A stretch of DNA of 41,025 nt from Psammoneis japonica (GCA_008632985.1 QPGO01000360.1:1-41025); one strand, 5' to 3'. Counted from the first letter of the stretch, positions 272-35,966 are shown. Notes: generated by a model not told the origin, from the sequence alone. Program-made: numbers and translations.

Positions 272-618
272 TGTGGGAAAGTAGCCGGAATTCTGGGATT
301 CGTCTGCACTTTCAGTGATTAAAAGCTGTGATTGCGACACAACAATCAATCAGTAACTTTATTGTGCCAAAAGTTGAGAGGTGACAATCAGTACGTTAGA
401 AAGATTATGAGCAGTTTTTATGAGCAGATGCAGCTGCCATCTAAAAGAAACGCGAAGTTAAACAAGCGCGAAGCTAGGAACAAACATCGCATTCGTGACT
501 CGGCTTCCGCGGGATTCGAGACTGAGCATCGCACACGGGGTTCGAATCTTGGATCTCTGATTTGAATCGTGGAGGTCCGATGTTGTTGTAAAAACATGCA
601 AATATGAATATTGTCACA
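272..618 (-). repeat. 3' LTR (347 bp)
   Basis: tgtgggaaagtagcc...ttgtcaca; matches 6422-6768 except for 10 substitutions. Confidence 0.95.
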
Positions 619-626
619 CTCCCTTC
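619..626 (-). other. Polypurine tract
   Basis: Minus strand GAAGGGAG immediately precedes the TGTGACAA start of the 3' LTR. Confidence 0.8.
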
Positions 627-661
627 AACAATGTCGGGTGGAATGATGACTCGAAAACGTC

Positions 662-3600
662 TTACCACTTAAGGAGCGATTTCCTGTGTTTAACGAAGAG
701 ATTCTGTGGTAGAGGTTTGGTGAAAATGTCTGCAATCTGATCCGCCGTATCAATTGGTAGGATTGATATGAGACCTTGCGAACATGGTCTTTAAAGTGGT
801 GGAGAGTGAGGTTGAAGTGTTTTGTCCGAGGACGCATCTTAGGCAATCTCGCGATCTCCAATGCTCCAGAATTGTCTTCAAAAGCCTTACAATGTACGAC
901 TGGTGTCTTGGAAGGGACATTATGACCGTGATCCATAAATTCTTGAATGAGGTTCATAATTGGGATGGCGCTTCGAAGACTTTCGAAAGAGCGATAAATT
1001 CAGCTTCAGTAGTGCTGAGCGCGATCTGAGTCTGTAGCTTGGACGTCCAGACAATCGGACATCCTGCATAGGTGATGACAAACCCAGTTCGAGATTTGGA
1101 AGTGCCAACGTCATCGGGTGCAGTCAGCTTATTCCAATTGCCCACAAAGTCCGCGTCGGCGTGAACTTCAAGGGACTTGTCCGTTGAGGGCTGTAGTATA
1201 ATACCTTCAGTTCTGGTTGACCTTAGGTACTTACAGAGCCATAGTACGGCTTCACCGTGAGAAACCTTGGGATCGGAAGAAAAGCGTGCGACTTGGTGCA
1301 CCGCGTAAGCGATATCCGGTCGAGTGCTCTTCTCCAGAAAATTGAGCTTGCCGATGATGGATCGGTAATGAAAGCTCCCTTGGAAAGCAGGCTCACTCAT
1401 ATGCCTGTGGAGGATCTTGGAGGAAGGAGCAGGAGTAGACTTATCTGGTAGTCTCTTTGGAATATTGGCCATCTCCAGTATCTGATTGATAAGGTGAGGT
1501 TGGGTAAGTTTCATTCTGCCGTCTGGTCGTGTCTCGACGTTGACACCGAGATAGTCGTCCAGAGCGCCTTGATCATCAATATCAAAATTCTCATCTCTGA
1601 TATCCTGTATCGCCTTGTCAATAGCAGACTTGTCAGGGGATGCAAAGATACCGTCATCGACATAATGAATGAAAATGACATTGCCACGAAAATACAGGCA
1701 CTCATCAACCGCCGATTGTACGAAACCAATCCTTAACAATCCATCACGTAAGTGTTCTTGCCATACTCTCCCTGCTTGCTTTTGTCCATATAAGTTCTTG
1801 AGCAACTTCAGAACATGAGTCTTATCATTGCCATATTTTGTTTCAATTCCTGCAGGTAACTCCATGTACATATCATATTCGATATCGGCATGCGGATACG
1901 CCAGAACGAAGTCGACTTGGCGTGTATGCCACTTCTTAAGAATGGCAATGATCAGTAGGAGCCGGATAGTGAACCAGAAGACCACGGCAGAGTAGGTCTG
2001 GAAGTAGTTGACAGCATACTCTTGCTTTCCGCCGTGCACATTAAGTCGGGACTTCCATTTGTAGACGGCTTGAGTCTTAATATCTCTTTTGCGCTTCATA
2101 GACCATACCGAAGGGAGAACATCAACATCGTCAGGTACGTCCTCTCTTGGAATGAGTATCCAATGTTTCCTTTCAATATGATCATTGACCTCCTTAACAC
2201 AGGCCTTGATAAATTCGTCTCTGTCAGGTTCACGCACAGCCTGATCAAAGTACATGGTGTCGGGGTCCGAGCTCGCCAGAAAAGAGATAGGTGAGTCCAT
2301 ATCGTCCTGCAGTTTGTAATCATCCTCGTGCATCGCATCATAATATGCCTCTGCCTCTGCATTGTAGGAGACAATGCCTTGAGCCCGTTGTAGTTGGCTC
2401 TCGCGCATTCTTTCGGTCGGGCGTCGTTGTCGGCCGGACCTGCTGGTACTGGGTTGACCCATAGTGCGCTGTGGCTCAGATGGTGCGTCAGAATCATCTG
2501 GAGGCGTGTATAGCATTTCATCATCCGGTTGGGCATTATCAAATGAGTCATCAGTGGTAGACGTGTCAGTGGGATGCAGCAGCTGAGACGGGACATCCGA
2601 ATTCGGCTCAGGTGGTTCCGTTGTGGTAGGGACTGATCCCTCAACCGGTACGTCACTTGATTTCCCAAAGATGTTAAAAGTACTCCTTGTTTTGAGTTGT
2701 CTGAAACCTGTAATGCCTTGCCATTGTGAGAATGTAGGAGGATTCCCAGCAGATGGACGAACAGTCTCAAAGAAGTCGTCAAATTGTACGTGAAATTGCG
2801 GCGATACGAGTCCGGTCTGCAAATTCAGAACCAAGGTAACTGAACCTGCGTGTCTTGTTGATGGTCCCAAATTGATTCCTAACCTTGCCCTTGGTCCCAC
2901 TTAGGCAGCCTACCTCCTCCCTGCAACCGGTTGTGCAAGGCGTAGACGGGACAGCCGAAGGTATGGTGTTGTTTGAGATTAGGCTGGACCTTGACGGACG
3001 AGAAACGTTCCAGCGGAGAAGAACCGTCCTCGTGATTCGGTAAGTGATTCTTGATCTCGTTTGAGTTCCTGAGAGCGCTTGGCCATAAGTTCAACTCAAT
3101 AGCCGTTGGCCATCTCACTTTTGCATGCAGGAGTTGCTTCCGAGATTGCTCTTGGAGGTCCCTTATTCTTTTCTCCGCGATGCCATTTTGGAAGTGGGCG
3201 TTGACCCCACAATAGGATATTGTTTGCTGTTGCTTCTTGACGTCTTGTATGAAAGCATTATCAGCAAATCTTCCATTGTCGGCGTGGCAGTGTTGAATAC
3301 GGACGTGCATCCGGCGTGCGAATGCCTCGAAAGCGTGCTTGGCTTCGAGCGTCTCGGCTGAGGTAAGTCCTTTCTGCAAATATATGTATCCCAATCCGCT
3401 GAAATGATCAACAAAAATTGTCGCTGCTCGATACCTTTGTTTCGTAGGTCTCCCTTTGAGCTGTGGGATCAATCCAGGAGTAGGACTCTCGAGCTGGTCG
3501 ACGGATACGGCTTCTCCAGGCGAAGTTGCCAAGTGGATTCGTCGGTTCCGCTTGGACTTGGAGCGCCATGGTCGTTTCGTCATGGCACCGTATAGGCAGC

Positions 3601-4918
3601 CGGCACATTTTGGGTTGTGTACCTTTGTAAGGCGTTTCGGTCGAATGCCTAGGGCGGCCAATAGCTTTATCATTTTGAATGACATGTGGCCCAGGCGGTA
3701 ATGCCAACGCAATAGTTCACCCTGGTCATCTGTGGCAGCAAGGGCGTCATCATTTGGTATGATGTTGATGGGTTCCGGTAAGTCCTGCTGTACCTCCGGT
3801 GTCGTGAAATCCCTTAGGTTTTCCTCGTCTGAGTCTGAACGACTTGCTCCGTCTGTTGGCTCAAATAAGACAGGAGCATCCTCATCAGTAGTGTTGCGTG
3901 CGTCTTGCGTCTCGGAAGGACGTGTCTCGGATGGACTTCTGAAGACGTCTGTATCAATTGCAGCCTCGTCATCATTCGCAATACTCTCGTCGTCTGGTGG
4001 TATGATGTGAGCTTGATGGGCCACGTGCTCGATAGTTTCGACATCGGTTTGTTCTTCGACAGCGGCTGCAAAGGTCCGGTATTTGTTGGAACCGGGTGCG
4101 GAGCGCATCTTGGCGACATTAGAGTTGGCGGACCATGGAATCAGGCGATGGTACTTGCGCTGGTCCCACATCAGTAATAGTCCATCGTCCCTAGTCCAAG
4201 ATACGGTTCCGTGAGGCTCTGGCGTGTGGTCATTAGCTTGTTGGCTCCATTGCTGCGGGCAGAGAAGACAATGAGGTAAGTCCGGTACGAGTGGCGCGTC
4301 TCGAATTTTGATGCTGTGCACTCGTCCCATGTCGTCCTCAATTGCCCACTGCACTGTTCCTTCTCCCTTAGCACGTAAGTAGCCCTTGACACCGAGTGCC
4401 ACTTTGTTGGATTTGCGAAGAGGACCAATGAAGTGTGCCTCGTTGTTGGACATGGTGCAGGAAGAATGTGAGTCGACACCGATTACGAATGAGTCCGAAT
4501 CGTAAGTGGGCTCCGTTCGCTCGGGACGGTATGGTGTGGTTGAGTTGTACGCTCTAACCGTCTTGTATCGCGTAATGACATAGTGAGCCTTCTTGGTGGC
4601 CACTCTGGAGCGGTGACCTGGCCTCGTCGACGTATGATACCGTGCGCAGTACCTCGTCGTTGGCCGTCGCTGGTAAGTCTTAACTCGTCTTGTGCCTAGT
4701 TCAGCCAGGATATGTGAGATGACCCACTCACCCAGCGTCATTACGGCATGTGACAGGCGCTTACACTTTTCTGAAGGAAGGGATAGCATCATGAATAGCA
4801 GTATGATCCAGATCGGTGCTGCACATTTCATGACGCCAGCGACCGCTATCAGGAGCACTGACACAGTGACGGCTATCTGCAAGGACAGCAGCAGTGTCAG
4901 AGTGAACCTGTAGAGCAG
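662..4918 (-). CDS. pol: Copia Pol polyprotein (protease, GAG-pre-integrase, integrase, RT, RNase H) with three 1-nt frameshifts (~2898, ~985, ~775)
   Basis: PR IGVDSHSS; WHYRLGH...CAGC; integrase VSVDQ / HADNG / QNGIAE; RT KNLYGQKQAG, YVDDG; RNase H DADF, LSTTEAEF, EDNSG, and QIADIFTKPL...LKW* after frame correction. Confidence 0.93.
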
Positions 4919-6347
4919 TCACTCTTGATCCACTTCGTTTAGGATGGTAGAGATAGCACTTGCGAAGGAGACTTTCTTGTCCAACGTGTCTGTGGATGGA
5001 GCAGACTGTTGCTTGCGGAGTCTACAGCCTTGGTTGCCCGGATCATCAGGTAAGTGTATGACCCAAGCAGTGTGATATGGGCACCAGTGATAGTCGCGAT
5101 TGTTGACGCGCTTGTGACAGTGCTGATGACCGTTCACTGTCTTCTTAGGAGCGTCCTCCTTAGGCGGGACTTTCTTCCAGGCTTCGTCCGCTTTCTGTCT
5201 CTGACGTGGAGTGGTCTTGGTCTTCCTTGACCGTGTGCTTCTTTCCTTGGTTGAACCAGCCTTGGCCTTCAAAGCTTTAGATAGCTGAAGGTTCTGATCC
5301 TTGATGGAGTCTACCTTGGCTGCAAGCGCGACGATTTGCTCTTCAGCCGGTGACAGTGCTCCCCACTTCGTCGTCGTACCTGTCCTTGTGTAACATGATG
5401 TACTTGACGAATGCTTCGTCAGCAGCTGCGGCGTGTCCTTTGAATAGATTCATGATAAGGTCGTCGCACTGCTCTCCTCTAGCTTGGAGTCCGTCAACGT
5501 TGAGCTTGGCGTACTTGTTGAACTCTTCGATGTCCGAGTCAACAGCCGCCATGCACGCATCCAGGCTTGACAAGTTCTCGCGGAAGTAGTTGGTGGTAGA
5601 GCGTGTGTCAACGATGGCCTTTTGCGTAAGTAGCTTGAAGAACAGTGTGCCGATTTGATTTCCATTGATCGTGTGGGAATCTATCTCAGCCAATGTCTTG
5701 TCTCTTGCTTCCTCCGTAAGGGATTGAGAGATCGCCTCGGCCATCTGCACATTGTTCTGTGCTTGTCGCGTAGGTAGATTCGCGAAGGTGTTCGCGTGGG
5801 TTCTTACATCCTGCAGAGTGAGTGGTCCGTACTCGGAGATGAGATCTCGTGGAGTTCCATTCGCGTCGGGAATGGCAAGCATGTCTCCTGCCCCTGTTTT
5901 CCATCCTGCCTCGGCAGCTCGTTGACTGAGTGTCTCACAAAACCGTTTGAGACCTTCTGAATCGCCGCTGAACTCGTGCGGCAGCGGCGCAGCAGCGGCG
6001 TTCCAAAATTTGAGGCCTTGCGATGTGCCGTAGTCGATGAAGATGTTGGGACGGTGTTGACCTGGAGTCAACGCGAAGATCGGCAGTGGTGGCACAGGTG
6101 CCAATGGTGGTCCACCTGGCGGGACTCCACCTGGTGGGACTCCGCCTCCTCCTCCACCTCCTCCGCCACCTCCTCCTGGAGGTGCACCGGGAGGAACGAC
6201 TGGGGGAGGTGCAGGAGCGACTGGAGCGGCTGCAGGAGCAGGTGCTGTTGCCGGAGCAGCAGCAGTGGTAGGAGCTGCAGCGGGTGCAGCAGCGGGAGCT
6301 GCAACAGAGGCAGCTAGAGCAGCCGCGGTTCGTGTCTGCGTGACCAC
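4919..6347 (-). CDS. gag: Copia Gag; start codon now GTG; internal deletion/frameshift near 5370
   Basis: Ala/Pro/Gly-rich N-terminus, FALTPG, IDYGT, QAQNNVQM, DIEEFN, KWGALSPAEEQIVAL (second frame) and a WCPYHTAWVIH zinc-knuckle-like motif. Ends at TGA 4921-4919. Confidence 0.88.
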
Positions 6348-6407
6348 AGTGACAGCAGAGTAAAGTAGAATCGAGAGCTTAAGATCGATTGACTTAACTT
6401 GTAGATT

Positions 6408-6421
6408 GCGCAGAGGAAGCG
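6408..6421 (-). other. Putative primer-binding site complementary to the D-arm region of tRNA-iMet
   Basis: Minus strand CGCTTCCTCTGCGC directly follows the 5' LTR. Plus strand GCGCAGAGGAAGCG(TG) resembles the recalled iMet tRNA segment GCGCAGCGGAAGCGTG. Confidence 0.6.
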
Positions 6422-6768
6422 TGTGGGAAAGTAGCCGGAATTCTGGGATTCGTCTGCACTTTCAGTGATTAAAAGCTGTGATTGCGACACAACAATCAAT
6501 CAGCAACTTTGTTGCACCAAAAGTTGAGAGGTGACAATCAGTGCGTTAGAAAGATTGTGAGCAGTTTTTGTGAGCAGATGCAGCTGCCATCTAAAAGAAA
6601 CGCGAAGTTAAACAAGCGCGAAGCTAGGAACAAACATCGCATTCGTGACTCGGCTTCCGCGGGATTCGAGACTGAGCATCGCACACGGGGTTCGAATCTT
6701 GGATCTCTGATTTGAATCGTGGAGGTCCGATGTTGTTGTAAAAACATGCAAGTGTGAATGTTGTCACA
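6422..6768 (-). repeat. 5' LTR (347 bp)
   Basis: Direct repeat of 272-618 with TG...CA termini. Confidence 0.95.
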
Positions 6769-9700
6769 CCTTTTTGTAGACGCCTGCAAATGGACGTTTG
6801 GTTCTCTTTGCTCTTTTGAGAAAGAACTGCGCATTCCGCAAGCCTCCTCGATGTTTTCAAGGGCATCGGCGTTGTTGAAAAACAAGAGATCTTGGCAATC
6901 GTTCTAGACCAGAATGAAGCTTGGCACCAATCTGACGATCCGTTAAAGAGCGTGCTGACAGCACAACTGCGTTCTGCCGCAACTAAAGTCTTGAAGCATT
7001 TGTTTTTCATTGTTGTTAACACATTGTCTTGGAAGCGCCCTTGCAACAAAACCAGGGCCCTGTGATGCCGGTGCGTGCGACATGCCAGGGTAGAAGACAA
7101 CACTGCGCAGTCAGTGGACTTTTGTTCATGAAGTTGAGGCCGTTGCCTTGGTCCACCTCAGCTTCTTGACGATCTCGCCATCTTCGCTTCGCGTTCAGAC
7201 ACCCAAAGCAAACCACACACACGACTCCACTGTTCTGCGAATGGGAAAAATGGGTGTCATTGCCAGTCAATTCAGTCATGCGAACAATGGCGCAAGGGGT
7301 GGTGATCTCGCGCAAACACGCTGTCTTGTGCGCTGAGTTCGAATGATGGAACCTGTCACCAGAATGACATTTGTGGGATGGTGCTGGGCAACTTGGATGG
7401 GTGACATTGATGGCATCAGGGGGGTGCCTTGAGCTGATCTGGGATGAGGAAATGCAAGACCCTTGAAGACAATTGTGTGCTGCCCTCACTGTGGCTGGGG
7501 GGGGGCTCATTCTGGCATTGACACACTGCTGAATTCTGAACATGGCTTCTGCCATTTGGCAGCTGGTTGTGCTGGCTGTCAGATGGAGCACCACTTTGGC
7601 TTCCTTGCCAAAAGCTGGCCACAGCATGACATCACAAATGGAGTGAAATGGCCATGCTGCTCAAGGCAAGGCTTGAGACACTTGCACTTTTTCTCTCATT
7701 CATGATCCACTGGAACCTCTCCTGGTGTCTTGGACTGGCAAAACTTTGCATCAGCTCCATGTCACAGGAACACAAATGTGAATGTCAACTGCTGCCATGC
7801 ATGTCTGTCTGTTCTGCAATTTGCAAGCAAGGACATCTCTGTGGTCTCCATCCATCTTCCATCTTTTTGCTTGTGGATGTTGTTGGCATTGCCTGAGCAA
7901 CTGTTGGTGGACTGGATCAGGCTTCTCATGGGTGCAACCAGGGTTGACCAACAAGGGTTTGTCATGCATGATGCTGTGCAGGAAGGCCCAGAGGAGGGTG
8001 GTTGGCACACTGGAGTGTTCGCCAACAGCAAGCTCAGTTCCAGTGCAGACAATGCAAGACACAAGGAAGGACAGCTGCTCTGAGCGCTCCCACCCATTGT
8101 TGCACACCATTTGGCAGCTTCCATGTTGTCCCATCACAAAACATGCCACACTGCATTGTGCAGTCTGCAGAGCAAGCACGGAAATGAACTCAGCCTTGGT
8201 GTTGGTTGAAAAAGCAACAACCACGTGGCTTCCAGTCCAATGTGACAGATTTGATGGCACTGGCATTTCAGCTGTGCATCAACCAGGACATGTTGCTCAA
8301 CCAGGACATGTCACACTCATTGCCAGTGGTGAGTTGCAATTTTGGCAAGGCCTTGGATGACCAAGAATTTTTGACTTGGCTTTTCTGCCAGCAGTCTCAT
8401 TCTTCCATCTGGCTGATGAAGCCACAAGCTTTGTTGGCCTCTGCTGCTGGCTTTGGCCATGGCTCGTTGCCACACCTGTCCCATGCTGACTGGATGGATG
8501 CCCAGATTTTTGTCTGGTGTGGCAAGTTGCTTCTCCATGAGTGCATGGCAGGCAGCCCATGGTTTGCCAGCCAGCTCACAAATGTGTGCAACACCTGTCA
8601 CTCTGAAAGCAATCTGCGGGCTTTTCCATCATGGAGAATGAGCCGTTCTGACACACAGCACTGCTGGCATCAGATCTGCCAAGTCCTGCACCTCCAGATG
8701 GTCATCATGTGATGGTCTCAATGGTGCCATGGGCAACAATGGCATCTTTGAGTTCAGGTGGTTTGGTGAACTTGTGAAAATGGTCTTCTTCTGGAATTCG
8801 TTGGCTCTTGTGTCCTTGGATTTTTCATCAACGTCATGTGACACCGTGTCTCCTTGGATTTTTCATCAACATCATCTGACACAAGAACTCACCCACCTTT
8901 TTGTGCTCAGAAATGTGCCCAACTGCTCTTCTTGGGTTCCATTGCAGCACCACTGCTCTGCCGCTGAATGCCTCCACTCTGCCACTGAATGTTTTGGCAC
9001 GCTGCTCAGGAGGCGTCCCTGCTCAGGTGTCGCTCACTGCTCAGGCATCTCCTCCTCCTTTTGAGTGGTCTTCAGGTTCACTTCAAGCAGCCATTCCTTT
9101 GACTGGACCAGCATTTTGTGCTTGCCCGCGTCCCGATCTAGCTTGTGCTGTAGACTGCGAATTCCAGAATGTTGGCACAAAGTGGAAATCCGGATGAGTC
9201 CTTTCAGGCGATTTTCGCACATGCAATGTTTTAATTGAACACATTATTTCGCGTTTGTGTCATCAGGATGCCATCACACACTTCATTTGGCAGATTCTTG
9301 ATGAAATGATGGTGGATCTCATGCTTCAAACGATGATTTTCTGTGGATGCTAGGCAGACAGTAATTGCAACAGCGCCAGCCACTAGAGCAAATGCAATTA
9401 CAGTGGCACTGCTGTCTGGGCATGTTGCAATTGTGTCATCAAGAACGTGTCGTGAACAAGGAAACGACGATGGATCTAATGCTTCGAACGACAATTTTCG
9501 GTGAACACACGCTAGAGTCATTGCAACAGCACTAGAGATGGAGCAAATGCAAATCCTGCAGCACTGTCTGGATGTGTCGCAATGATGACATTGCAGCACA
9601 ACAAAGCAGTCATGCACAATGGATTCCTAAAATCACACATTGCCAATGGCATTCCTAGAAGCAACGCGGCCGATGACAGAACGCATTTCATGCTAAATCG
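6769..9700. other. TpA- and CpG-depleted degenerate block of unidentified origin (decayed repeat or pseudogene)
   Basis: TG/CA-rich. TA is almost absent between ~7030 and 9130. Only Cys/His-rich junk ORFs are present. Confidence 0.7.
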
Positions 9701-9925: not shown

Positions 9926-10015
9926 AGGAGGTCCAGCAGCAGCCTGAGCAGGCGCAGGAGGTCCGGCAGCAGCCTGAGCAGGTGCAGGAGGTCCAGCAGC
10001 AGCCTGAGCAGGCGC
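9926..10015. repeat. 30-bp coding tandem repeat x3 (PAQAAAGPPA)
   Basis: aggaggtcc(a/g)gcagcagcctgagcagg occurs three times. Confidence 0.85.
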
Positions 10016-25469: not shown

Positions 25470-27110
25470 CTGTCTTCTCCCGAATCTTGTCAATCTGTTG
25501 GAGCATCTTTGCCATCCGGTGAGTCGCAAACACAATTGCAAACACAGGAACTTGACCCATGCTCTCAACATGATGTTCATTTTGCTCAGACGGCAGCCGC
25601 GAAGCTCCGAGGTTGTTTTGCCTTTGACCAGCACATCCCCAGTGCCAATCATTGGAAGGTGCACTCAACAACCTCCCAGACCTGGGAGAGCCACCGATGG
25701 CAGAGACCAAGAAGGTCTCTGACTTCCTGGAGGCTGACAGAAGAAAGTGTCATGCTGGGGGGTGGCAACCAGGCCAACCTCTCCATTTTTGAGCTGCATG
25801 ATCAGCACATTGCACAAAGACTCCAGAGTTGACAATGCGAAGAGCTGTGACTGCTCATCAGTGCAGTGGCCAAGTTTGAACTGAAGCCAGGAAATGAGAG
25901 TGAGATGAACAGCGTGTTGTGTGTTGGCAGCAACAGATGCCAATTTAGACAAAGAGGCATTGGAAAATGTGAGCAATTTTCACAACATCAAGCTGCAACA
26001 AAGACCAGATGTGCACGCAAGCTGCCCAAATTTTGTTCACAATTTTGGCAGCTTTTTGCAACTCAAGAGCTGTCAAAATCATCTGATCACTGACAAAAAT
26101 CAAGTGAAGAAGCCACAGCTGTTTTAAAGACATTTGACGAGTTGAAAAGCAAGCAAGAGCAGTTGAAAGCACTGCCTCAACTCAACAACTGTGAAAACAA
26201 TGCAGCTGTTTTGCACACTCCAATGTGCACTCTTTTCATTGCTGCACGGCCTGTGTGTGCCATGCATTTTGACTATGAAGACCTCTGAAACCACCACAGC
26301 TTTGACACCAGCTCAGAAAATTTGCACGAGGCACCAAGTTTGGCAGGCTCTGGGCTTCAAGATTTTGGGTGCTGGCCTTGGCAGAGGTGCAACTCAAAAA
26401 AGGTGGCACAAACAAATGCTGTTGGCAGCTTCAACACACATGCATTGCAATGTGTGCATCATGTGACTGTGCCAGTGCAAGCTGATGGTGCGCACAGGTG
26501 TTGGAGCACAAAAGCACAGCAGCGAATCTGACTGTGGCTGCGTTGGACCCAGCTGAGGTGTCAAGAGTTTTTGCTGAACAGCAGAGCCCACTGGGCTTCA
26601 AAAGTGAGAAGAGTCCATGGCTCTGTCTGAGAGTGAAAGAGATGGCATCAAGCTGCCGCTTGTTTTGCTGATGTGTGGGGGAGAAGGGCCTGTGCAGCAG
26701 ATGATGGGCGCTGTGGCGCACGCCAACAGAGAGCACAGAGCTGTTGCTTCCGTGCTGGTGAAAGAACAAAAGCAGAAAATGCACCAAGTGGCAACCAATG
26801 GACAATGACCAAACACAAAAAAACAAGCACCATTTGGGGACATGTGAGGCCAAGGTGGGTGCCACAATGTGCAAAAGCCCTTGAGCCAGAGCCAGAGCAG
26901 TGTGGTGCTTTGACTGTGGTGGCTGGGCACGACAATTGAGAGCCTCTGGCAGAGCTGGCTGCACCTTCATTCCCCCTTCTGCTGGCCACCTCCCCGCTTA
27001 TTTTGTCCTTTCAGCTAGAAATGGGTGTCAGATTTGGTCAGATCATTGCTGCACTTTTCCCTTCCATCTGAGAAGTTGCTCTGCTCGCAAAGCACACCCG
27101 CATGCATAGA
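25470..27110. other. TpA- and CpG-depleted degenerate block, probably a decayed transposon
   Basis: TA is nearly absent, with sharp compositional edges next to normal genes. No confident protein match. Confidence 0.6.
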
Positions 27111-27268
27111 CAGACAGAAAATCATTTGACTCATTACCAATTACACTGCCCACCATTTTTTCTGCCGCCGACAAAAAACAAAACAGAAACGCTCCCTACT
27201 CCCCGACAGTATACTTTCTTTATAGTTAGTCTCTAATCGTTGTTGCTTCATAGCAAACACTTGTTACC

Positions 27269-29220: not shown

Positions 29221-30300
29221 TCAAGTTTTCTCTAGAGTGATTAGAGAGTCTATGGTATATTGGAAGGGATGCGTCTGGGGAAATGTGTGGCGGAAGGGTC
29301 GCGCGAAGCGCGCTAGGGGATGGGGAGAAAAAGGGTGGACCGAGAGTACGGACAGACGGTTGAGAGGAGGAGTTGGTAACAGCAGGGTGGCGGAGGAGGA
29401 AAGCTTGATGCGTAGAAAGATGGGTGGAGAGAGCAAAGCCGAAGTTAAGACTGAGGATTTGGGAGGCCCAAAGTGATGGTGTTGAGGCGTGATGTGAAGA
29501 GCCGAAGCGGTCTTGAGAGAGTTGTTTCCAGGCCCCGCGTTGGAGTTGGCAAGGAGATCGGAGGGTGCGAGGAGTGAGTTGGTGCAGGCGGAAAAGGATG
29601 GCTGAGAGTTGGAAAAGGAGGCAGGACTTGTCCAGGGTGGTTTAGGAGGAAGGGGTGGCATGGGGGAGGAAGTTTTGGCAGAGGTGCCGAAGAAAAAGGT
29701 GTTGAAATGGCAGCCGATGCCGCCGAGGTGGTCGAGGATGAAAGGGAGAAGGAAGAGACCGGCTTGGTTGATGGCGTCAATGATGTTGGATCTGTGAGTG
29801 GATGATGCAGAGCAACCAAGGAGCTTGTCCCATGTGCTGCTGAGGTGAGCCTTGTTGAGTGGGTTTTCAGGGACAGGCAAACCAGGTGCAGGAAGCGGGG
29901 CAGCTCTCGAGAGGCAAACAATCGCGTGGCAGGACAGAGGTGACAAAAAGCGTTCGCCAAAATGACCGGGACATCGGGGCATGTCTCAGGATGGCACAAA
30001 AGCAATGCCAAATGGAAACTTGGCTGTCACATTGAATGAAGGCGAGAACCACGTCTTTCAACATGTGAACGAGAAAGATCAGATCGAAGCGACTGAGCCT
30101 GTGCAGGTCGATCTAGGGCCCCAGCTGCCGGTGATGTTGACGAGAGTTGTGAGATGTGATCGTGCACTCTTTTGCCAACCAACCTGTGGGCAAAAGAGCA
30201 CCACACTCCCACAGGAAGTCAGACCAACCGGAGGTGTGGGAGCATGAACAACACGGTTGTTTGGCTCTTCAACCCATCCACCATCACCCCAGAAGCAACC
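29221..30300 (-). mobile_element. 3' fragment of a non-LTR retrotransposon (CRE/RLE-like), degenerate
   Basis: LFLLPFILDHLGGIG and, after a frameshift, RFGSSHHASTPSLWASQILSLN resemble recalled C-termini of diatom non-LTR ORFs. TA loss increases toward 30300. Confidence 0.5.
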
Positions 30301-30306
30301 TAAGAA

Positions 30307-33300
30307 TGGATTGTGTCGGGATCTGCAATCCTTTCAACAACTGTGTCAGTTCCAACAGAGGGAAGCACAGTTGTTCCCGCCATCCCTGCTGGCTCCGGTG
30401 TGAGGTTCAGTGCCTCTGACACTCGGTTGACACAAAAAGGTGTGATTGGGTTCACCCTTTGCTGGCAGCAGATCAACTCATGCATCAGGCACTTGTTGGT
30501 TTGGGTTGTGGCTGTGCAAACAACACCTGTGATGACAAATCAATCAAAAGCATCATGTGGGTTGCACCTGCAGCAGATGCCACTGTGTGCATCGACTGTG
30601 ATGGCGATGGATCATTTGACGACTCTTTTCAAGCTTTGGAGCTCTGGTCAATCAAAATCTCTGACAACTCAGATGCAGACATGACTGGGGCAACTGCATT
30701 TGCTGCTGCTGGTGGTCCTGATGACCCAACGGTGGACATCACAGTTGCTTGGGACAGAACCCCTTTGTTTTGCATGTTTTTCAGAGACTTGCTCATTGGA
30801 CCTCAGAACAACTGCACCCCCTTTGCCAATGCTTTTGGCTGGAAAGACATCGGCTCTCCTCCAGGACATTGATGGACATGGAAAGGCTGACTTGGGTGAC
30901 TTGTTGTTGCGCGCTGTTTGAGTGGCAAACACCGGAAGAGTTGGTGCACTGACTGGTGGCTGGAATGTCACAAACTTCTGCAATGCCATGTTGGATGCCA
31001 GAGACTGCATGGCAAACACTGCCATGTGCAATGATGGAACTAAAAGGTTTCCATCCAAGACAAAGCATCTGGAACTCCCTTCCCTCTTGGGGGGCTAAGG
31101 TCTGACCAGTCCGTTGATCTTGGCCACTGAAGGGGCACATGAAATGACATTCAAAGTTGCACAAAGCAAAACATTGATGATTTGGAAGCAGGCGTGGATC
31201 AAATTTCCAGTGCTGGAGAGATCAATGGAAACAAATCTGATTGGTTTGAATCTGCAACCCTGCTTGATTTTAATCCAAACATTGAGCATGATGGCGCTGA
31301 TTGTCCCAGATCAGAGTCTTTTGGAATGCAACAAGAAGATCCGGTGACACATTGCTGCAACATGATCAACCTGGAGACACCCAGTTGAGCAGTGTCAAAG
31401 TCTCAGATGCTGTTGCAAGCCTTGTGCTCCGACGGCATTCAGCCCAGGCAGCTGGCAAGTGCTTGCATTCCAAACTGACGTTGAACGCAGTCAATTCAGT
31501 GCTGCCACAGCATCAAGGATCACAAACCACAGAGATGGAGAGAAATGATTGTTGATCAATTCATGGACCCTGTCACATCATCTGATGCTGCCGGTGCAGA
31601 TGCGCTCCTTGCACCAACAGCAAATGACAAAAATTGCGCTGCCAATGAAGACACCCCAATCCAAGTTGCTTCCCCTGAAAATCTTTCGAATGACAGTGAT
31701 GAGAACTGGAACAATGATTTGATGGTGACTGTCTTGATGGCACCTGCAAATGGATCTCTTGACCAGAATGCGCCAATGTGGACTTCAATGGATTGGATTC
31801 TCACACGTGCAAGGCCTGCAACCAAAACGGCCCATGTGACCAAGCGACAGTCACGGTCATTGTCAAGGGGATGAACGATCAACCCGCTGCTCTCAACAAC
31901 TCAATCGTGACTTCAGAAGACACTCCAGCAACAATTGACATTGCAGACAATGATCTTGACATCAATGGTGACCTTGTCCCATTCAAAGCTGCTGTTTTAA
32001 CCAGGCAGACAAACAGGACAGTGGATGACAACAGCAATGGCACCATTGCGCACACCCCACATGAAGACTTCAATGGTGTTGATGCGTTCGCACACCACCA
32101 AGTGCGAGACACTGACAGCAACTGCACCAGTGCAACCACAACTGTTGCACTTGATGGTGTGGACAATGCACCTGTCACTTTGGGTGACTCCATCATGACT
32201 CCAGAAGACACTCCAGCAACGATTGACATTGCAGACAACAATCTTGACATCGATGGTGACCTTGTCCTCAGCACAGCCGCTGTTTTAACCGGGCCAACAA
32301 ATGGATCAGTGGACAACAATGGTGATGGCACCTTTGTGCACAACCCCCATGCAGACTTCAATGGTGTCAACATGTTCACATGTCAAGCGTGCAACACCAA
32401 TGGTGACTGCGCTGCTGTGACCACAACCATTGCAGTTGATGCCATGAACGACGCACCTGTTGCTTTGGATGACTCCATCACAACTCCAGAAGACACTCCA
32501 GTGATGATCAACATTGCAGACAAGAATGATCTTGACATTGATGGTGACCTTGTCCCAAGTGCAGCTGCTGTTTTAACTGGGCCGACAAATGGAACAGTGG
32601 ACAACAACGGTGATGGCACCTTCACACACACCCCAGTTGAAGACTTCAATGGTGTCAATGCAATCAAATGTCAAGCGCGCAACACCAACAGTGACTGCAC
32701 TGCTGCAACCACAACAACTGCAGTTGAGGCCATGAACAACACACCTGTTGCTTTGGACGACTCCGCCATGACTCCAGAAGACACTCCAGCAACAACTGGC
32801 ATTGCAGACAATGATCTCGACATCAATGGCGACCTTTTCCTGAGCACAGCTGCTGTTTTAACCAGGCAAGACTTTGACGGCAAAGATGCACTCACACATC
32901 AAGCAGTGCGCACAATGCCAACGGTGACTGTGCACTGCAGCAACTGTCAATCTTGTTGTGCTTGGTGTCAATGATGCACCAGTTGTTGTTGTGGATGCAG
33001 TGAGCACCAACAAGGACACTGCGGTGGATGTCAACACAGTCACCAATGCTCCAGAGGATGTTGATGGCAACCTTGATGCAACTTCTGCAACAATTCTGAC
33101 ACCACCTGAGAATGGCCAGGTTGTCAACAATGGCGACGGAACATTTGCATGCACTCCGGACCCAGACTTCAATGGCAAAGACTCCTTCACCTGCCAAGTG
33201 TGCCACATTGACCAAGAATGTGCAACAGCTGCTGTCACCATCACTGTTGAACCTGTCAATGACCCTCCTGTGGCACAGAATGGCAAATTTGCCATGGAAG

Positions 33301-34490
33301 AAGACGATGTGCTTGACACTCCGATTGGCGCAATCTTGCTGAATGACAGTGATGACAAAAATGAACTGAACCAATTGTCTTTGGTGGTTCTCACATCAAA
33401 TGCGTTGAACGGAGCTGTGGTCAATCAAGGAGATGGAACACTTTGGTGCACTCCCAACCCTAATTTCAATGAAGTTGATGAACTCACCTGCGCCATTTGC
33501 AACACTGGTGGTCTCTACAACAGTGCCCTTGTCACAATCACTGTCAGCTCCATCCTGGATCCACCCATTGCCCAGGACCTTGGACTTGTCATTGACCAGG
33601 ATGCAGACTTGTTTCTTTCCGAGGCGGCTGGAATCAAGCAATGTCTTTCATGCAAGGACGGCATGTTGGGATGCACAAACTGTTCAAACGCTGGCATTTC
33701 TGATGTGGACACACCACTCGGCACCTTGATGATTTCCACAATGGAAAGCACGAGCCAGTTTGGTGGAGACATTGATTCCACATCCAATGGCAAGTTTGCT
33801 TGTGAGCCAGCAGAAGGCTTTGCCAGCATTGATGACGCTGAGTGCTTGGTTTGTGATCCTGAGGCAGGGTGTGCATGACACTGGAATGATCAAGATGATT
33901 GTCATGCCTGCAACCAAGCACAATTGTTCTGTTTGCTGTGGAGACTGGAGTCAGGTGGTCACTTTTACATCTCCAACAATTTGGGTTGAGAGAGTGTGCA
34001 GATTAAAGAGTTTTCTCTCATTTTTGAGCACCTGACCAGCGGTGGCACATGCGCTTCCGGCACTTGGACGCCATTCGAGGTGGTTGGCTGCAAATTTGAC
34101 CATGCCACAAGGACCGTGCTTTGCTCAAACAACATGGTTGTCAAATTTCAGCAGTGCAAGGCCAACACACACATCCCACCAGGTGCAGAGACTCATGCCA
34201 TGGCATTGACAGATGTTTTGGCAGCATGTCAAGCAATTCAATCAAGAGCATCATCTCTTTGAGCATGGAGGGAGCAAAAGGTGAACTCAGGGATCCAAGG
34301 GAACCCAACGGTTGCATTTCCCAAGGCAGATGCTCCAAAGGTTGCAGCAAAGGCAAGGGCAAGGGTTGAAAATGCAGAAGAAGTCTCAACTGATGCTCTT
34401 CCTGCACCCGCTCCAACTCCTGCCAGCAAGGGCAGAAAAGGAAAAGCAGTGAGAGCCGGCAAGGGAGGAAAAGGAAAACAAGCAGCATGA
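30307..34490 (+). pseudogene. Hypermutated gene for a large extracellular protein with tandem ~95-aa cadherin-like / Big_9 (tandem-95) Ig domains and a GK-rich tail
   Basis: Repeated NDAPVALDD..TPEDTP..I..NDLDIDGD..LTGPTNG.V.NNGDGTF.xTP..DFNG.D.FTxQ units at a ~285-290 nt period; ends GKGGKGKQAA*. Has stops and frameshifts; the 5' limit is approximate. Confidence 0.85.
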
Positions 34491-35167
34491 AAGCAAGATC
34501 TTCCATCACCACAATTGTTGCATTGCCCCCAAGCATTTGCTCTTTAGATGCAACACAAAAGAGCAAATGAGCCACTTCAAAAGTCAACAAGATCGTCATC
34601 TTCATCTTCCCCAAACCAGGCTCAGCTTGTGCAGTGGGCTCTTTCATTGCCGCAATTGTTGGATTGCCCACCAACATTTGCTCTTTGGGTGCAACACACA
34701 ACAGCAAATGAGCCATTGCATGAGTCAACATGATCATCATCTTTGTCCTCCCCAACCAGCTTGGCTTGCAGGGAGCTTCCCACAAGGGTGGAAAAGAAAA
34801 ACCAGCATGAAAGTGCAGGCTTCCATTGCAGCAATTGTTGGATTGCCCCCAAGCATTTGCTCTCTGAGCATGACAGCACACATGCCATCACATGGGTCAA
34901 TGTGATCGTCATCATCTTCGTCTTCCCCAACCAGCTTGGCTTGTGCCGTGGTGGGGAGCTGCTCAGTTTTCTGTGCACTTGCTTGGCGCTCATCCTGCGT
35001 TGAAACCAAGATGGGTCATGGGGCCACTTGTGCTTGTTAAAACCAGTTGTTGGAGTCCGCAACATGACTGCTGGCTCAAAAAGTCGTCAGAAAGAATGTT
35101 GTGACACCACTCTCGACTCTTTCTCAGGATGTCTTTCAGGATGTGCTGTGAGATGACCTGTGCATCT

Positions 35168-35208
<41 letters not shown>

Positions 35209-35540
35209 TGTTTTCAAAGCTCCTCATCCCACTGCTGTCTCGCATGGCAGGGACCTGCTTTTTCGCGTTGCGAGGAGCGGATGTCATGCAAGAAAAGCAC
35301 AAAAGCCTTTGCGTGCACAAGTCAATGTAATCATCAGTTTTGTTTTCCCATCAAGCTCAGCTTGCAGGGGAGCTTCTCAGTTTTCCATGTTCTTGGCACT
35401 CCTCCTGCGTTGTTGAAACCGAGGGGCTGCACGTGCTTGTTAAAAAACAGTTTGTTGTTGGAGTCCGCAACATGCCCACCTTCTGACTCAGAAAGTCAGA
35501 AAGAAGACCACCACACACTCTCAACTCTTCCTGAGAGCAT
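34483..35540. repeat. Degenerate satellite-like repeats (~140-180 bp subunits)
   Basis: CAATTGTTG(C/G)ATTGCCC at 34512, 34653 and 34832; CAGCATGAAAG at 34483 and 34803; 34895-35125 resembles 35320-35540. Confidence 0.75.
35170..35208. repeat. (CT)n microsatellite
   Basis: Seen directly in the sequence. Confidence 0.95.
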
Positions 35541-35966
35541 CATCACTCTCGTGTTCTTTTTTCATTCTCGCGCATTTGTGTTTTTGCGTTTCGAGCAGGC
35601 TGCGGAGCAATTTCACGCTCTGCGCATCAGCCCTCCTCTTTGTGAGCACTTCGAGTGCACCCACACGATCAACGCCACTACATGACGATGTCTAATGCAC
35701 AAAATAGGATTAATTGAAATGCGCCGTGAGCTGCGTTCGCAACATCATTGTCGCAACACTTTTTGTCCTCTTGCGTTATTTTTCGACGAATTCAACGTGG
35801 ACGGACGACGGACGGGCGCGACGAGTTCGAGGCTGTACTCATTCGACCTCTCTCTTGCATTCAAAAGATCTTTTCCACGTGTCCTGTCCTACAAATTCCA
35901 CGTGAGATCCACATCTATGTTCACCGTTCACCTCTCACTTTTGTGCTGTTGGCCGTTGCATCCACC

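What the first reader, a model, noticed from the sequence alone, without database searches (positions are those of the whole stretch)
272..35690. Candidate 'reverse-RIP' system: repeat-targeted TpA->TpG/CpA (A:T->G:C) hypermutation
Seen: four multi-kb blocks (~6770-11420, ~21060-23520, ~25470-27110, ~29450-35690), made of transposon relics, satellite and disrupted genes, are almost free of TA and rich in TG/CA. Neighbouring intact genes have normal TA and Tyr. The LTR pair and conserved Tyr->Cys/His codons show that TA is being lost, not gained, on both strands. Established: fungal RIP does the opposite (CpA->TpA), and 5mC deamination cannot remove TA. Inference: a process acting on repeated or silenced DNA mutates adenine in TA context. 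Candidate mechanisms are (a) Pol eta-type error-prone resynthesis (WA->WG, as in phase 2 of Ig somatic hypermutation) triggered by repair in methylated chromatin, or (b) a TadA/ADAT-like DNA adenine deaminase (TadA-derived editors prefer TA). I know of no description of this as a genome-defence system, but I could not search the literature. No enzyme for it is visible in this window.
Basis: partly seen in the sequence, partly recalled or inferred. Interest (0 to 1): 0.93.

Follow-up and report, generated by a model that had tools for sequence, protein, structure and literature searches.

The report
TpA-targeted hypermutation blocks in a diatom
Several stretches of this diatom-like genome have had almost every TA dinucleotide turned into TG or CA by a local mutation process, recently measured in one other alga, that may be a defence that scrambles foreign or silenced DNA.

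Summary
Four blocks (RTAY-free intervals 5831-11276, 20870-23527, 25228-27209, 29348-35835; 16.6 of 41 kb) have lost nearly all TA (o/e 0.05 vs 0.56), and TG/CA is nearly doubled. The longest TA-free run is 2,048 nt, against at most 175 nt in shuffles. A sequencing run's contigs carry the same sequence, so this is not an assembly artefact. The direction is TA->TG/CA. In a decayed bacterial-type surface-protein gene, 17 of 17 conserved Tyr positions are Cys or His. A young Copia's LTRs differ only by transitions: the block-side LTR lost 7 TA while all 19 CpG stayed intact. New here: a flank rule (TAY >> TAR), a ~2-kb gradient into the Copia, independence from CpG decay, no strand runs, and the same signature in Copia copies elsewhere. 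The kind is not new. A 2026 preprint measured the same TpA-only A:T->G:C hypermutation in integrated viral DNA of Bigelowiella natans and proposed ADAT2-type DNA deamination. This window extends it to a diatom-like genome. 'Repeat-targeted' is not supported, because apparently high-copy elements here are untouched. The enzyme is untested.

The parts
5831..11276 (.). Block 1: an RTAY-free interval. It includes the last ~940 nt of the Copia (gag end and block-side LTR) and the 2,048-nt TA-free run 7091-9139.
   Evidence: A contig of run X1 (1,467 nt, 9 differences) lies on 7667-9133. Codon-phase (RNY) runs show decayed coding DNA. Pfam finds no family.
20870..23527 (.). Block 2: an RTAY-free interval with one exception at 21304.
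   Evidence: Summed contig depth is 73-79 on 21009-22342 and 817-1187 on 22343-23676, against 50-62 on unique genes (the tool warns that this depth is not a copy number).
25228..27209 (.). Block 3: an RTAY-free interval.
   Evidence: Pfam finds no family.
29348..35835 (.). Block 4: an RTAY-free interval and the largest block.
29849..34295 (+). Decayed, frame-shifted relic of one large bacterial-type surface-protein gene. The N-terminal and middle domains lie at 29849-31539 and the tandem-95 (Big_9/cadherin-like) repeats at 31614-34295.
   Evidence: Pfam Big_9 1e-43. Homologues are bacterial tandem-95 proteins. 161 homologues match frame 30420-30869, the best at E 1e-21; these carry IgGFc_binding, DUF11 or DUF7507. 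tblastn hits are colinear. Conserved Tyr is replaced by Cys/His at 13 of 13 and 4 of 4 positions.
10127..11248 (-). 374-aa open frame with a charged, coiled-coil-like composition and no Tyr, at the right end of block 1.
   Evidence: By my own estimate of TGA frequency (inference), this is too long to be chance even in DNA where TGA is the only stop. No Pfam family. No viral relative.
272..618 (-). Distal (3') LTR of the Copia element: 14 TA, unmutated state.
619..6421 (-). Internal part of a young Copia retrotransposon (gag 5343-6461, integrase 2879-4918, RT 954-2900). RTAY density falls from 18.8/kb to 1.4/kb towards block 1.
   Evidence: Pfam RVT_2 and gag_pre-integrs. Gradient.
6422..6768 (-). 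Block-side (5') LTR of the Copia: 7 TA. Seven TA were converted to TG or CA, and all 19 CpG are retained.
   Evidence: 100% identity to the other LTR in purine/pyrimidine space.
11421..13004 (.). Control: apparently high-copy element with normal TA (RTAY 19.6/kb) and CpG o/e 1.1-1.5, directly abutting block 1.
   Evidence: Summed depth 1365-1712 and a loose end at 11419..
15006..16339 (.). Control: second apparently high-copy element with normal TA (RTAY 17.2/kb).
   Evidence: Summed depth 888-1732..

Best explanation
The blocks are the saturated end-state of a real, regionally confined hypermutation that converts TpA to TpG or CpA, i.e. A:T->G:C by an A->G change on either strand. It prefers 5'-TAY-3' over 5'-TAR-3' and runs about two orders of magnitude faster than background. 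It acts after integration on decayed and foreign-type DNA: a bacterial-type gene, unidentified coding relics and one end of a Copia. It reaches ~2 kb into neighbouring DNA. It is the same kind of process that was measured directly in integrated viral DNA of Bigelowiella natans. The most likely chemistry is enzymatic deamination of adenine to inosine in DNA by a CDA-fold, ADAT2/TadA-like deaminase guided by chromatin state or by recognition of foreign DNA, not by sequence homology. The CpG loss in the same blocks is a second, slower and separable process (5-methylcytosine deamination). Shown: the reality, direction, dinucleotide and flank specificity, locality and recency of the process, and its independence from CpG loss. 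Inferred: the deaminase chemistry, the guidance, and any defence function.
For: Real: a contig of run X1 (1,467 nt, depth 61.9, similar to the 50-58 of flanking unique genes) matches 7667-9133 with 9 differences. The signature also appears in separately assembled metagenome contigs and in one NCBI-derived protein.

Direction: 13 of 13 conserved Tyr columns in the tandem-95 repeats are Cys (9) or His (4). 4 of 4 consensus Tyr in a second domain are Cys.

Speed and locality: the LTRs differ at 10 positions, all transitions. Seven are TA (distal LTR) versus TG/CA (block-side LTR), one pair of positions is TG versus CA, and one is AAT versus AGT. CpG is 19 versus 19.

Flank rule: TA survival in the blocks is ~1% for RTAY, ~5% for RTAR/YTAY and ~33% for YTAR. 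In the LTR, 7 of 9 TA with a TAY on at least one strand mutated, against 0 of 5 YTAR (my reading of the alignment). In 7 of 7 asymmetric sites the product is the one the TAY rule predicts.

Spreading: RTAY per kb falls 18.8, 15.3, 13.3, 7.1, 1.4, 0 along the Copia towards block 1, while YTAR stays flat.

Ongoing or recent: differences from the run's contigs include TA/CA, TA/TG and CA/TG pairs. 21 of the 30 listed positions inside the blocks are YpR interconversions; only 40 of 1,061 differences were displayed. Among three repeat units, 19 dinucleotide columns hold CA in one unit and TG in another.

Prior direct measurement: in B. natans, 230 of 231 de novo mutations in two viral insertions were A>G or T>C, and the authors state that all these changes fall on TpA, at ~6e-7 per site per generation. 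The NCLDV region is single-copy and silent. The authors propose an ADAT2 homologue.

Deaminase-like: only transitions. AA o/e is unchanged (1.18 vs 1.17). A review states that a TadA-8e variant edits A preferentially in a 'YAC' context (PMC13109818, passages).
Against: No enzyme, inosine, methylation, chromatin or expression data could be examined, and the genome is not held.

The gradient rests on a single Copia. It could instead reflect something special about the element's 5' LTR and promoter end, rather than spreading from block 1.

The origin of blocks 1-3 is unknown: no Pfam family, no viral relative, no atlas hit. 'Foreign DNA' is therefore shown only for block 4, and the Copia is a mobile element.

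TG and CA products are randomly interleaved (runs test z between -1.2 and +2.3). A processive single-strand deaminase would be expected to leave strand-coordinated tracts, unless many rounds have erased them.

One of 9 LTR events is not at TA.

Run X1 may come from the same sample as the assembly, and its library type is not on record.

The diatom assignment rests on named protein hits only.
Confidence: 0.6

Rival explanations
1. Error-prone resynthesis by a Y-family polymerase (Pol eta type, WA->WG) during repair of silenced or methylated DNA creates the A->G changes.
For: The 5' base of the mutated A is T in 7 LTR events and A in 1, which fits a WA motif. The effect is regional, with a gradient.
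Against: All 10 LTR differences are transitions. From recalled knowledge, Pol eta at A:T pairs also produces a sizeable share of transversions. AA is not depleted in the blocks (o/e 1.18 vs 1.17). Saturation to 2 of 223 expected RTAY, together with a strong 3'-base rule, is not a known polymerase signature. In B. natans, 230 of 231 mutations were transitions.
Confidence: 0.12
2. A homology (duplication)-triggered process of the RIP type, perhaps using the RID-related DNMT4 enzymes of diatoms, mutates repeated DNA.
For: The outcome resembles RIP: saturating transitions at one dinucleotide, sharp blocks, leakage into neighbouring DNA. Copia copies are hit here and in other contigs. Diatom DNMT4 is related to fungal RID and its function is unknown (PMC9998398, passages). 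Part of block 2 and block 1 show raised summed depth.
Against: Two apparently high-copy elements and most of the multi-copy Copia are unmutated. Identical LTRs are hit unequally (7 vs 0-1 events). A stretch with near single-copy depth (21009-22342) is saturated. A C5-methyltransferase-like enzyme offers no chemical route for A->G (established chemistry). The hypermutable NCLDV insertion of B. natans is single-copy.
Confidence: 0.08
3. Thymine, not adenine, is the primary target. A TET/JBP-type dioxygenase oxidises T at TpA to 5-hydroxymethyl- or 5-formyl-uracil, which mispairs with G and gives T->C. The same enzyme acting on 5mC could add to the CpG loss.
For: TAY->TGY on one strand is the same event as RTA->RCA on the other, so the data cannot tell which base is attacked. 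Both palindromic YpR dinucleotides end up as TG/CA. That 5-formyluracil mispairs with G is recalled knowledge, not a call.
Against: TA loss occurs without any CpG loss in the LTR (19 vs 19), in P0245 (21 of 27 conserved Arg kept, none Cys/His) and in L054/L055 (CpG o/e 0.9-1.0). One enzyme for both targets is therefore unlikely. No such modification is known to me in diatoms (recalled).
Confidence: 0.08
4. There is no dedicated mutator. A slow, context-dependent mutation bias plus G:C-biased mismatch repair or gene conversion in old methylated DNA has driven TA to equilibrium.
For: TA is mildly under-represented everywhere (o/e 0.56 outside the blocks). The blocks are old enough to have lost two-thirds of their CpG. 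From recalled knowledge, E. coli very-short-patch repair is thought to deplete CTAG in favour of CCAG/CTGG.
Against: The LTR pair shows 7 TA lost with no unrelated substitution in 347 nt, so the rate at TAY is about 100-fold that of other sites in a young element. AT and AA are unaffected, so this is not general W->S bias. Borders change within 100-200 nt. De novo rates 1000-fold above background were measured in B. natans.
Confidence: 0.04
5. Sequencing or assembly artefact, for example base-modified DNA miscalled at TA and CG.
For: The library type of run X1 is not on record, and it may be the source sample.
Against: Contigs of X1 at single-copy depth carry the TA-free sequence. Each site is fixed as TG or CA, not a mixture of the two. 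Reading frames show the matching amino-acid changes. The same signature occurs in separately assembled metagenome contigs and in one NCBI-derived protein.
Confidence: 0.02

Closest known systems
TpA hypermutation of integrated viral DNA in the chlorarachniophyte Bigelowiella natans (Mettrop et al., bioRxiv 10.64898/2026.01.13.699255; abstract, Results and Discussion read)
   Same: Almost only A>G and T>C, all at TpA, giving TpG/CpA. Confined to discrete regions. A long-term footprint of TpA-depleted, CpA+TpG-enriched clusters. Targets include non-eukaryote-type and mobile sequences. The target need not be repeated. By the preprint's own thresholds, 11 of this window's 41 one-kb bins qualify, forming two clusters of at least 3 bins.
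   Different: A different lineage: diatom-like stramenopile versus rhizarian. Depletion here is saturated (o/e 0.05, against Rho 0.45 for their NCLDV region). No viral genes were recognised here. The preprint text does not mention flanking context, CpG, spreading into neighbours or diatoms. Its supplementary tables, which hold the mutated sites, could not be opened. Rates were measured there and only inferred here.
Repeat-induced point mutation (RIP) of Neurospora and other fungi
   Same: Saturating transitions at one dinucleotide, sharply bounded blocks, leakage into adjacent DNA, destruction of reading frames of mobile DNA.
   Different: Opposite direction and base: RIP is C:G->T:A at CpA, making TpA, while here TpA is destroyed. 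GC content is kept at ~50% rather than driven down. It does not follow duplication. The taxon differs. A DNMT-like enzyme cannot perform A->G.
AID/APOBEC cytosine deamination of retroelements, viruses and immunoglobulin genes
   Same: Local hypermutation by a probable CDA-fold deaminase with a short flanking motif. A ~2-kb decaying gradient recalls AID action downstream of promoters (recalled knowledge).
   Different: The target base is A, not C. No strand-coordinated runs. It acts on resident chromosomal DNA, including a non-retroelement gene.
ADAT2/ADAT3 and TadA tRNA adenosine deaminases, and TadA-derived adenine base editors
   Same: A->I chemistry read as G. The natural target A34 follows the invariant U33, so the context is 'UA' (recalled knowledge). 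A TadA-8e variant edits in a 'YAC' context (PMC13109818). Amphioxus and trypanosome ADAT2 are reported to act on DNA (as cited in the preprint).
   Different: No deaminase gene could be examined here. A natural role in heritable chromosomal hypermutation is only a hypothesis.
ADAR hyper-editing of double-stranded RNA
   Same: A->G changes on both strands with a 5' U preference.
   Different: ADAR prefers a 3' G (recalled knowledge), whereas here TAG is among the most resistant contexts. The changes arose in DNA after integration, as the unequal LTRs and a non-retroelement gene show. ADARs are known only from animals (recalled knowledge).

Membership tests
TpA-directed hypermutation as described in B. 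natans (preprint 2026) | Mutations are almost exclusively A>G / T>C transitions | tested here: met
   LTR pair: 10 of 10 differing positions are transitions. Repeat units: 141 transitions vs 42 transversions, and identity rises from 79% to 94% in purine/pyrimidine space.
TpA-directed hypermutation as described in B. natans (preprint 2026) | Mutations fall on TpA and give TpG or CpA | tested here: met
   TA o/e 0.05 with TG 1.80 and CA 1.75. 7 of 9 LTR events are TA->TG/CA, 1 is TG versus CA, 1 is off-motif. 17 of 17 conserved Tyr are Cys/His.
TpA-directed hypermutation as described in B. natans (preprint 2026) | Confined to discrete genomic regions against a normal background | tested here: met
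   Four intervals hold 2 RTAY against 223 expected. Flanks are at 13.5/kb. Borders change within 100-200 nt.
TpA-directed hypermutation as described in B. natans (preprint 2026) | Targets are integrated viral or other non-eukaryote-derived or mobile sequences | tested here: inconclusive
   Block 4 holds a 4.4-kb bacterial-type surface-protein gene relic. Copia copies are hit here and elsewhere. Blocks 1-3 remain unidentified, and no viral gene was found.
TpA-directed hypermutation as described in B. natans (preprint 2026) | De novo rate ~1000-fold above background in mutation-accumulation lines, active in only some lines | not testable with these tools
   Only an indirect estimate is possible: ~100-fold excess at TAY sites in the block-side LTR.
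TpA-directed hypermutation as described in B. natans (preprint 2026) | An ADAT2-like candidate deaminase is present in the genome | not testable with these tools
   No genome is held for this window.
Fungal RIP | C:G->T:A transitions, mainly at CpA, producing TpA-rich, AT-rich DNA | tested here: not met
   The opposite is seen: TpA destroyed, CA/TG enriched, GC ~0.50 in the blocks.
Fungal RIP | Triggered by sequence duplication, with the mutated tract matching the duplicated tract | tested here: not met
   Apparently high-copy elements and most of the multi-copy Copia are unmutated. Identical LTRs are unequally hit. A stretch with near single-copy depth is saturated. Caveat: summed contig depth is only a rough guide to copy number.
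Fungal RIP | Dependence on RID/DIM-2 and on the premeiotic stage | not testable with these tools
   No genome or life-cycle data. Diatom DNMT4 is RID-related with unknown function (PMC9998398).
5-methylcytosine decay of methylated repeats | CpG->TpG/CpA with CpG depletion | tested here: met
   CpG o/e is 0.32 in the blocks. However, it is absent where TA loss is recent (LTR 19 vs 19; L054/L055 CpG 0.9-1.0). It therefore accompanies TA loss but does not explain it.
Pol eta-type (WA) mutagenesis | Hits both TA and AA; mixed transitions and transversions at A | tested here: not met
   AA o/e is unchanged. Only transitions occur in the LTR pair.
ADAR-type editing | 3' G preference and an RNA intermediate | tested here: not met
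   TAG and TAA are the most resistant contexts. The changes arose after integration, in one LTR only, and also in a non-retroelement gene.
ADAT2/TadA-like DNA adenine deamination | A->I (read as G) with a 5' T/U and a pyrimidine-leaning 3' base | tested here: met
   TAY >> TAR on both strands, both in the window and in environmental contigs. This shows that the signature fits, not that such an enzyme is responsible.

The most novel reading that the evidence does not exclude
The TpA-only hypermutation is a conserved, chromatin-guided DNA adenine-deaminase immune system. It is shared by at least two branches of the SAR supergroup (Rhizaria and stramenopiles) and derives from the tRNA-editing ADAT2/TadA enzymes. 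The TAY flank rule would then be the fossil of anticodon-loop recognition. The system would be recruited to foreign or silenced DNA and spread in cis for ~2 kb, so that it permanently erases Tyr codons, among others, from invading genes without making them AT-rich.
Probability: 0.3. Interest if true: 0.9.

Novelty: new member of a known kind. Interest (0 to 1): 0.7.

Why it matters
As far as my searches and recall go, natural heritable A:T->G:C hypermutation of chromosomal DNA was unknown until a 2026 preprint on one chlorarachniophyte. Finding the same TpA-only signature, saturated, in a diatom-like genome and in Copia copies from other contigs suggests the process is widespread in ecologically dominant algae and not a curiosity of one species.

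The window adds testable mechanistic facts. First, a three-base rule (TAY >> TAR), which any candidate enzyme must reproduce in vitro. Second, independence from CpG methylation decay. Third, a lack of dependence on repetition. Fourth, a graded ~2-kb reach into a young retrotransposon, which marks a place where new mutations should be caught in real time.

It also gives a practical marker, RTAY density. This is more specific than TpA-low plus CpA+TpG-high windows, because CpG decay alone can mimic those. A natural DNA adenine deaminase would also interest base-editing research.

Tried and rejected
Whole genome: none is held for this window. So there was no genome-wide map, no TE-versus-consensus spectra and no enzyme survey.

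Stop-free frames were sent instead. Of 109 frames, only one, in the Ig/cadherin-like repeat region, matched its families, and one had a sub-threshold WW match.

Strand-coordinated tracts: not found.

A strict RNY threshold called nothing in blocks 1-3, so a phase track replaced it.

Origin of blocks 1-3: the atlas gave no usable hit for 22546-22983. Two scans of viral contigs, with the 374-aa frame and with 7019-7660(-), found no relatives.

Expression: no RNA holder is listed. Run X2 has no cover on blocks 1-2 in the stretch laid. Neither can be used as evidence for or against silence.

L054 and L055 looked like two copies but are one locus: beyond the first ~185 columns there are 5 differences in ~3.6 kb. 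They count once.

Cluster look-up of P0245 and P0001 returned no names.

Earlier notes of this scan: none by place, words or sequence.

The first nine found no description of TA->TG/CA hypermutation, and the tenth found the B. natans preprint. One 'YAC' hit meant yeast artificial chromosome. The AID/APOBEC survey (PMC5889660, passages) mentions algal lineages but not diatoms.

No target-site duplication could be recognised around the Copia. Whether it inserted into block 1 or beside it therefore stays open.

Full report
OBSERVATION. A sliding-window count shows four multi-kb blocks in which TA is almost absent and TG/CA are nearly doubled. Over 11.4 kb of block sequence there are 34 TA (o/e 0.05), against 1141 in 29.8 kb outside (o/e 0.56). 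TG o/e is 1.80 and CA 1.75, against 1.22 and 1.21 outside. Twelve of the sixteen dinucleotides are unchanged. The longest TA-free run is 2,048 nt (7091-9139). Its probability at the outside TA frequency is 2e-35, and 200 shuffles never exceeded 175 nt. TG/CA o/e close to 2 is what full conversion of both palindromic YpR dinucleotides would give.

ORGANISM. No genome is held for the window. An AAA_16 ATPase gene and the Copia reverse transcriptase have their best named relatives in diatoms: Amphora, Bacillariaceae, Seminavis, Epithemia, Cylindrotheca, Thalassiosira and Attheya. No hit exceeds 70% identity. I therefore call it a diatom-like genome of a species absent from the protein collection. 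It is not Bigelowiella natans.

NOT AN ARTEFACT. One study holds the stretch. A contig of run X1 (1,467 nt, depth 61.9) lies wholly inside the 2-kb TA-free run, on 7667-9133, with 9 differences and no gaps. Contigs on flanking unique genes have depth 50-58. Each site is fixed as TG or CA rather than mixed. The library type is not on record and the run may be the source sample, so this alone is not fully independent. However, the same signature appears in separately assembled metagenome contigs and in one NCBI-derived protein (see the section on other contigs below).

DIRECTION. Block 4 contains a decayed bacterial-type surface-protein gene. I built a profile of its tandem-95 repeat from 1,034 repeat units of 120 homologues. 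That profile has two conserved Tyr columns, and the window's repeats carry Cys (9) or His (4) at 13 of 13 such positions. A second domain upstream (frame 30420-30869) has 161 homologues, the best at E 1e-21, and at all 4 consensus Tyr positions the window has Cys. Block frames contain 0-0.4% Tyr, against 0.9-4.8% in neighbouring genes. So TA was lost, on both strands: Cys arises from TAY->TGY and His from TAY->CAY.

SPEED AND LOCALITY. The two LTRs of a Copia element (272-618 and 6422-6768) are 96.4% identical in plain letters and 100% identical in purine/pyrimidine space. They differ at 10 positions. Seven are TA in the distal LTR against TG or CA in the LTR that touches block 1, two form one TG-versus-CA dinucleotide, and one is AAT versus AGT. 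TA counts are 14 versus 7 and CpG counts 19 versus 19. There is no unrelated substitution in 347 nt. The rate at susceptible TA is therefore roughly two orders of magnitude above other sites, the element is young, and the process acted after integration.

FLANK RULE (new). Survival of TA in the blocks depends on its neighbours. RTAY is at 0.15 per kb inside against 12.05 per kb outside (about 1% survive). RTAR/YTAY is at 0.55 against 11.24 (5%). YTAR is at 2.19 against 6.70 (33%). Of 47 survivors, 30 are TTAA, CTAG, TTAG or CTAA. This means the preferred target is A in 5'-TAY-3' on either strand. In the LTR, 7 of 9 TA with a TAY on at least one strand mutated, against 0 of 5 YTAR (my reading of the alignment). 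At the 7 sites where only one strand offers TAY (4 in the LTR, 3 Tyr codons preceded by a pyrimidine), the product is the predicted one in 7 of 7. All 4 His codons are preceded by a purine. RTAY density is thus a sensitive marker: 2 sites in 16,574 nt of blocks where 223 are expected.

TWO SEPARABLE PROCESSES. TA loss occurs without CpG loss in three places: the block-side LTR; protein P0245, which keeps 21 of 27 conserved Arg with none changed to Cys or His; and loci L054/L055, with CpG o/e 0.9-1.0. Conversely, some environmental Copia loci show CpG decay without comparable TA loss (L049/L050: CpG 0.13-0.16 and TA o/e 0.37-0.38 in their most TA-poor 1-kb window). CpG loss in the blocks is therefore best read as ordinary 5-methylcytosine decay of old silent DNA, added on top of a faster TA-specific process.

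WHAT IS TARGETED. tblastn places one colinear bacterial-type gene relic on the + strand from 29849 to 34295. It has an N-terminal and middle part whose relatives carry IgGFc_binding, DUF11 or DUF7507, followed by tandem-95 repeats. This covers about 70% of block 4. In blocks 1-3, Pfam finds nothing in the stop-free frames. Even so, codon-phase (RNY) tracks, which transitions cannot erase and which recover the true frame in 32 of 33, 32 of 36 and 21 of 24 windows of three known genes, show long phase-consistent runs broken by shifts. These blocks are therefore decayed coding DNA of unknown origin. The 'satellite' is the 288-nt coding repeat.

Repetition is neither necessary nor sufficient. Elements at 11421-13004 and 15006-16339 have summed contig depths of 888-1732 but normal RTAY (17-20 per kb) and CpG. 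The stretch 21009-22342 has near single-copy depth (73-79) and is saturated. The tool warns that this depth is not a copy number.

Inside the multi-copy Copia, RTAY per kb falls 18.8, 15.3, 13.3, 7.1, 1.4, 0 towards block 1, while the resistant YTAR class stays flat. The last RTAY is at 5830. The process thus reaches ~2 kb into a neighbour in a graded way. Because the affected end is also the element's 5' LTR and gag, a promoter-end effect cannot be excluded from this single case.

NO STRAND RUNS; RECENT ACTIVITY. TG and CA products are randomly interleaved (runs-test z between -1.2 and +2.3). Of 40 displayed differences (out of 1,061) between the window and the run's contigs, 30 lie in blocks, and 21 of those are interconversions among TA, CG, TG and CA: 5 involve TA and three are CA/TG doubles (6 positions). 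Three repeat units differ by 141 transitions and 42 transversions, and in 19 dinucleotide columns one unit has CA where another has TG. Both results show independent resolution of the same ancestral site in different copies or alleles.

ELSEWHERE. Among 120 Copia RT relatives, P0245 is an outlier: Tyr 0.8% against a median of 3.4%. At 20 family-conserved Tyr columns it has 8 Cys and 3 His. The window's own Copia has 0 of 20, P0243 has 0 of 20 and P0310 has 1 of 20. The F, W, K, G, L and R columns of P0245 are intact. Of 77 metagenome loci with Copia RT, 67 had at least 8 scorable Tyr columns and 10 were dropped. L054/L055 (one locus) has Cys/His at 6 of 8, L048 at 4 of 8, L068 at 3 of 8 and L058 at 2 of 8. 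L045 has 2 of 9. L060, L046 (the same sequence as L045) and L032 have 1 of 8 each, and three further loci have 0. The remaining 55 loci have 0 of 466 cells, with 429 Tyr. Depleted segments of L054 and L068 obey the same hierarchy: RTAY has 0 sites against 64 in their normal parts, YTAY/RTAR are at 24% and YTAR at 47%. The host organisms of these contigs are unknown.

LITERATURE. Nine searches found nothing. The tenth found Mettrop et al., bioRxiv 10.64898/2026.01.13.699255, of which I read the abstract, both parts of the Results and the Discussion. In mutation-accumulation lines of Bigelowiella natans, 231 of 302 nuclear mutations fell in two integrated viral regions (NCLDV, 186 kb; virophage, 25 kb) at ~6e-7 per site per generation, against 3.5e-10 elsewhere. 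Of these, 230 of 231 were A>G or T>C, and the authors state that all these GC-biased changes fall on TpA. The hypermutation was seen in only 11 of 15 lines. The NCLDV region is single-copy and transcriptionally silent. By its thresholds, 11 of this window's 41 one-kb bins qualify. The same call shows that CpG decay alone can also pass those thresholds (L020, L049).

MECHANISM. A->G without transversions, saturation, strict dependence on a 5' T, and a 3' pyrimidine preference fit enzymatic adenine deamination to inosine. ADAT2/TadA-type enzymes act on A34 after the invariant U33 (recalled knowledge). A TadA-8e variant is reported to edit in a 'YAC' context (PMC13109818, passages). ADAR is excluded by the 3' preference and by the DNA-level timing of the changes. 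Pol eta is disfavoured by the absence of transversions and of any AA effect. A RID-like methyltransferase has no route to A->G. Slow biased repair cannot explain the LTR pair. Thymine oxidation cannot be told apart from adenine deamination by sequence alone. Guidance by chromatin state or foreign-DNA recognition rather than by homology is inferred from the gradient, from the untouched repeats and from the single-copy NCLDV target in B. natans. My odds: real local TpA hypermutation 0.9 or more; the same kind as in B. natans about 0.7; a deaminase as the agent about 0.45.

VERDICT. The core inference (TA-context A:T->G:C hypermutation of particular DNA) is supported, 'repeat-targeted' is not, and the mechanism remains open. 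In kind it is no longer unprecedented. It is a new member, in a new lineage, of a process described in 2026, with added mechanistic detail: the flank rule, independence from CpG decay, graded reach, a bacterial-type gene and Copia as targets, and a sharper diagnostic.

Noticed in passing
window blocks (7001-9200, 9701-11150, 21151-23350, 25451-27100, 29451-35650): CpG loss in the blocks also depends on context. ACGT and TCGA are down to ~21-22% of their outside density, while GCGC is unchanged (2.48 vs 2.38 per kb) and CCGG, CCGC and GCGG stay at ~77-78%. This could reflect the methyltransferase's preference, or different ancestral composition.
   Followed up: no
window 11213-11699 and 11921-12616: An element with high summed contig depth and CpG o/e 1.1-1.5. 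It contains a ~490-nt palindrome (89% in purine/pyrimidine space) and short TTCGAA-type tandem repeats. It abuts block 1 yet is completely unmutated, and contigs of other copies diverge at 11419.
   Followed up: partly
window 5047-5147 and 5625-5721: Contigs of run X2 skip 99 and 95 nt with GT..AG ends inside the Copia gag region, which look like spliced forms. X2's kind is not on record, so this may be RNA or deleted copies.
   Followed up: no
window 267-271 and 6769-6775: No target-site duplication is recognisable around the Copia. Its left flank (1-271) has normal TA (9) and CpG (18), while its right flank is TA-free. The element therefore sits at a block border and not inside a block, or one flank was rearranged.
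   Followed up: partly
window 29849-34295: A bacterial-type giant surface-protein gene (relatives carry IgGFc_binding, DUF11, DUF7507; tandem-95 repeats) sits in a diatom-like chromosome between ordinary genes. It is a probable horizontal acquisition that has since been destroyed.
   Followed up: partly
L049 and L050 (about 4900-6600), L020, L067: Some environmental Copia loci have strong CpG depletion (o/e 0.13-0.3) without comparable TA loss, and they still pass or approach the preprint's TpA-low / CpA+TpG-high thresholds. Those thresholds can be confounded by CpG decay.
   Followed up: partly
window 27652-28021: A gene with a weak, sub-threshold LisH-motif match (27254-28870) carries four copies of a 93-nt coding repeat rich in Ser, Glu and Lys. 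It lies between blocks 3 and 4 and has normal TA.
   Followed up: no
window 9201-9700: The apparent gap in block 1 (TA o/e 0.14-0.25) is not an unmutated island. It has 0 RTAY but 9 YTAR, i.e. it was rich in the resistant contexts.
   Followed up: yes
window 6422-6768 vs 272-618: Of the 7 TA hits in the block-side LTR, 6 are A->G on the + strand, including all 3 at sites where both strands offer TAY. This is a possible local strand bias that is not seen in the saturated blocks.
   Followed up: no
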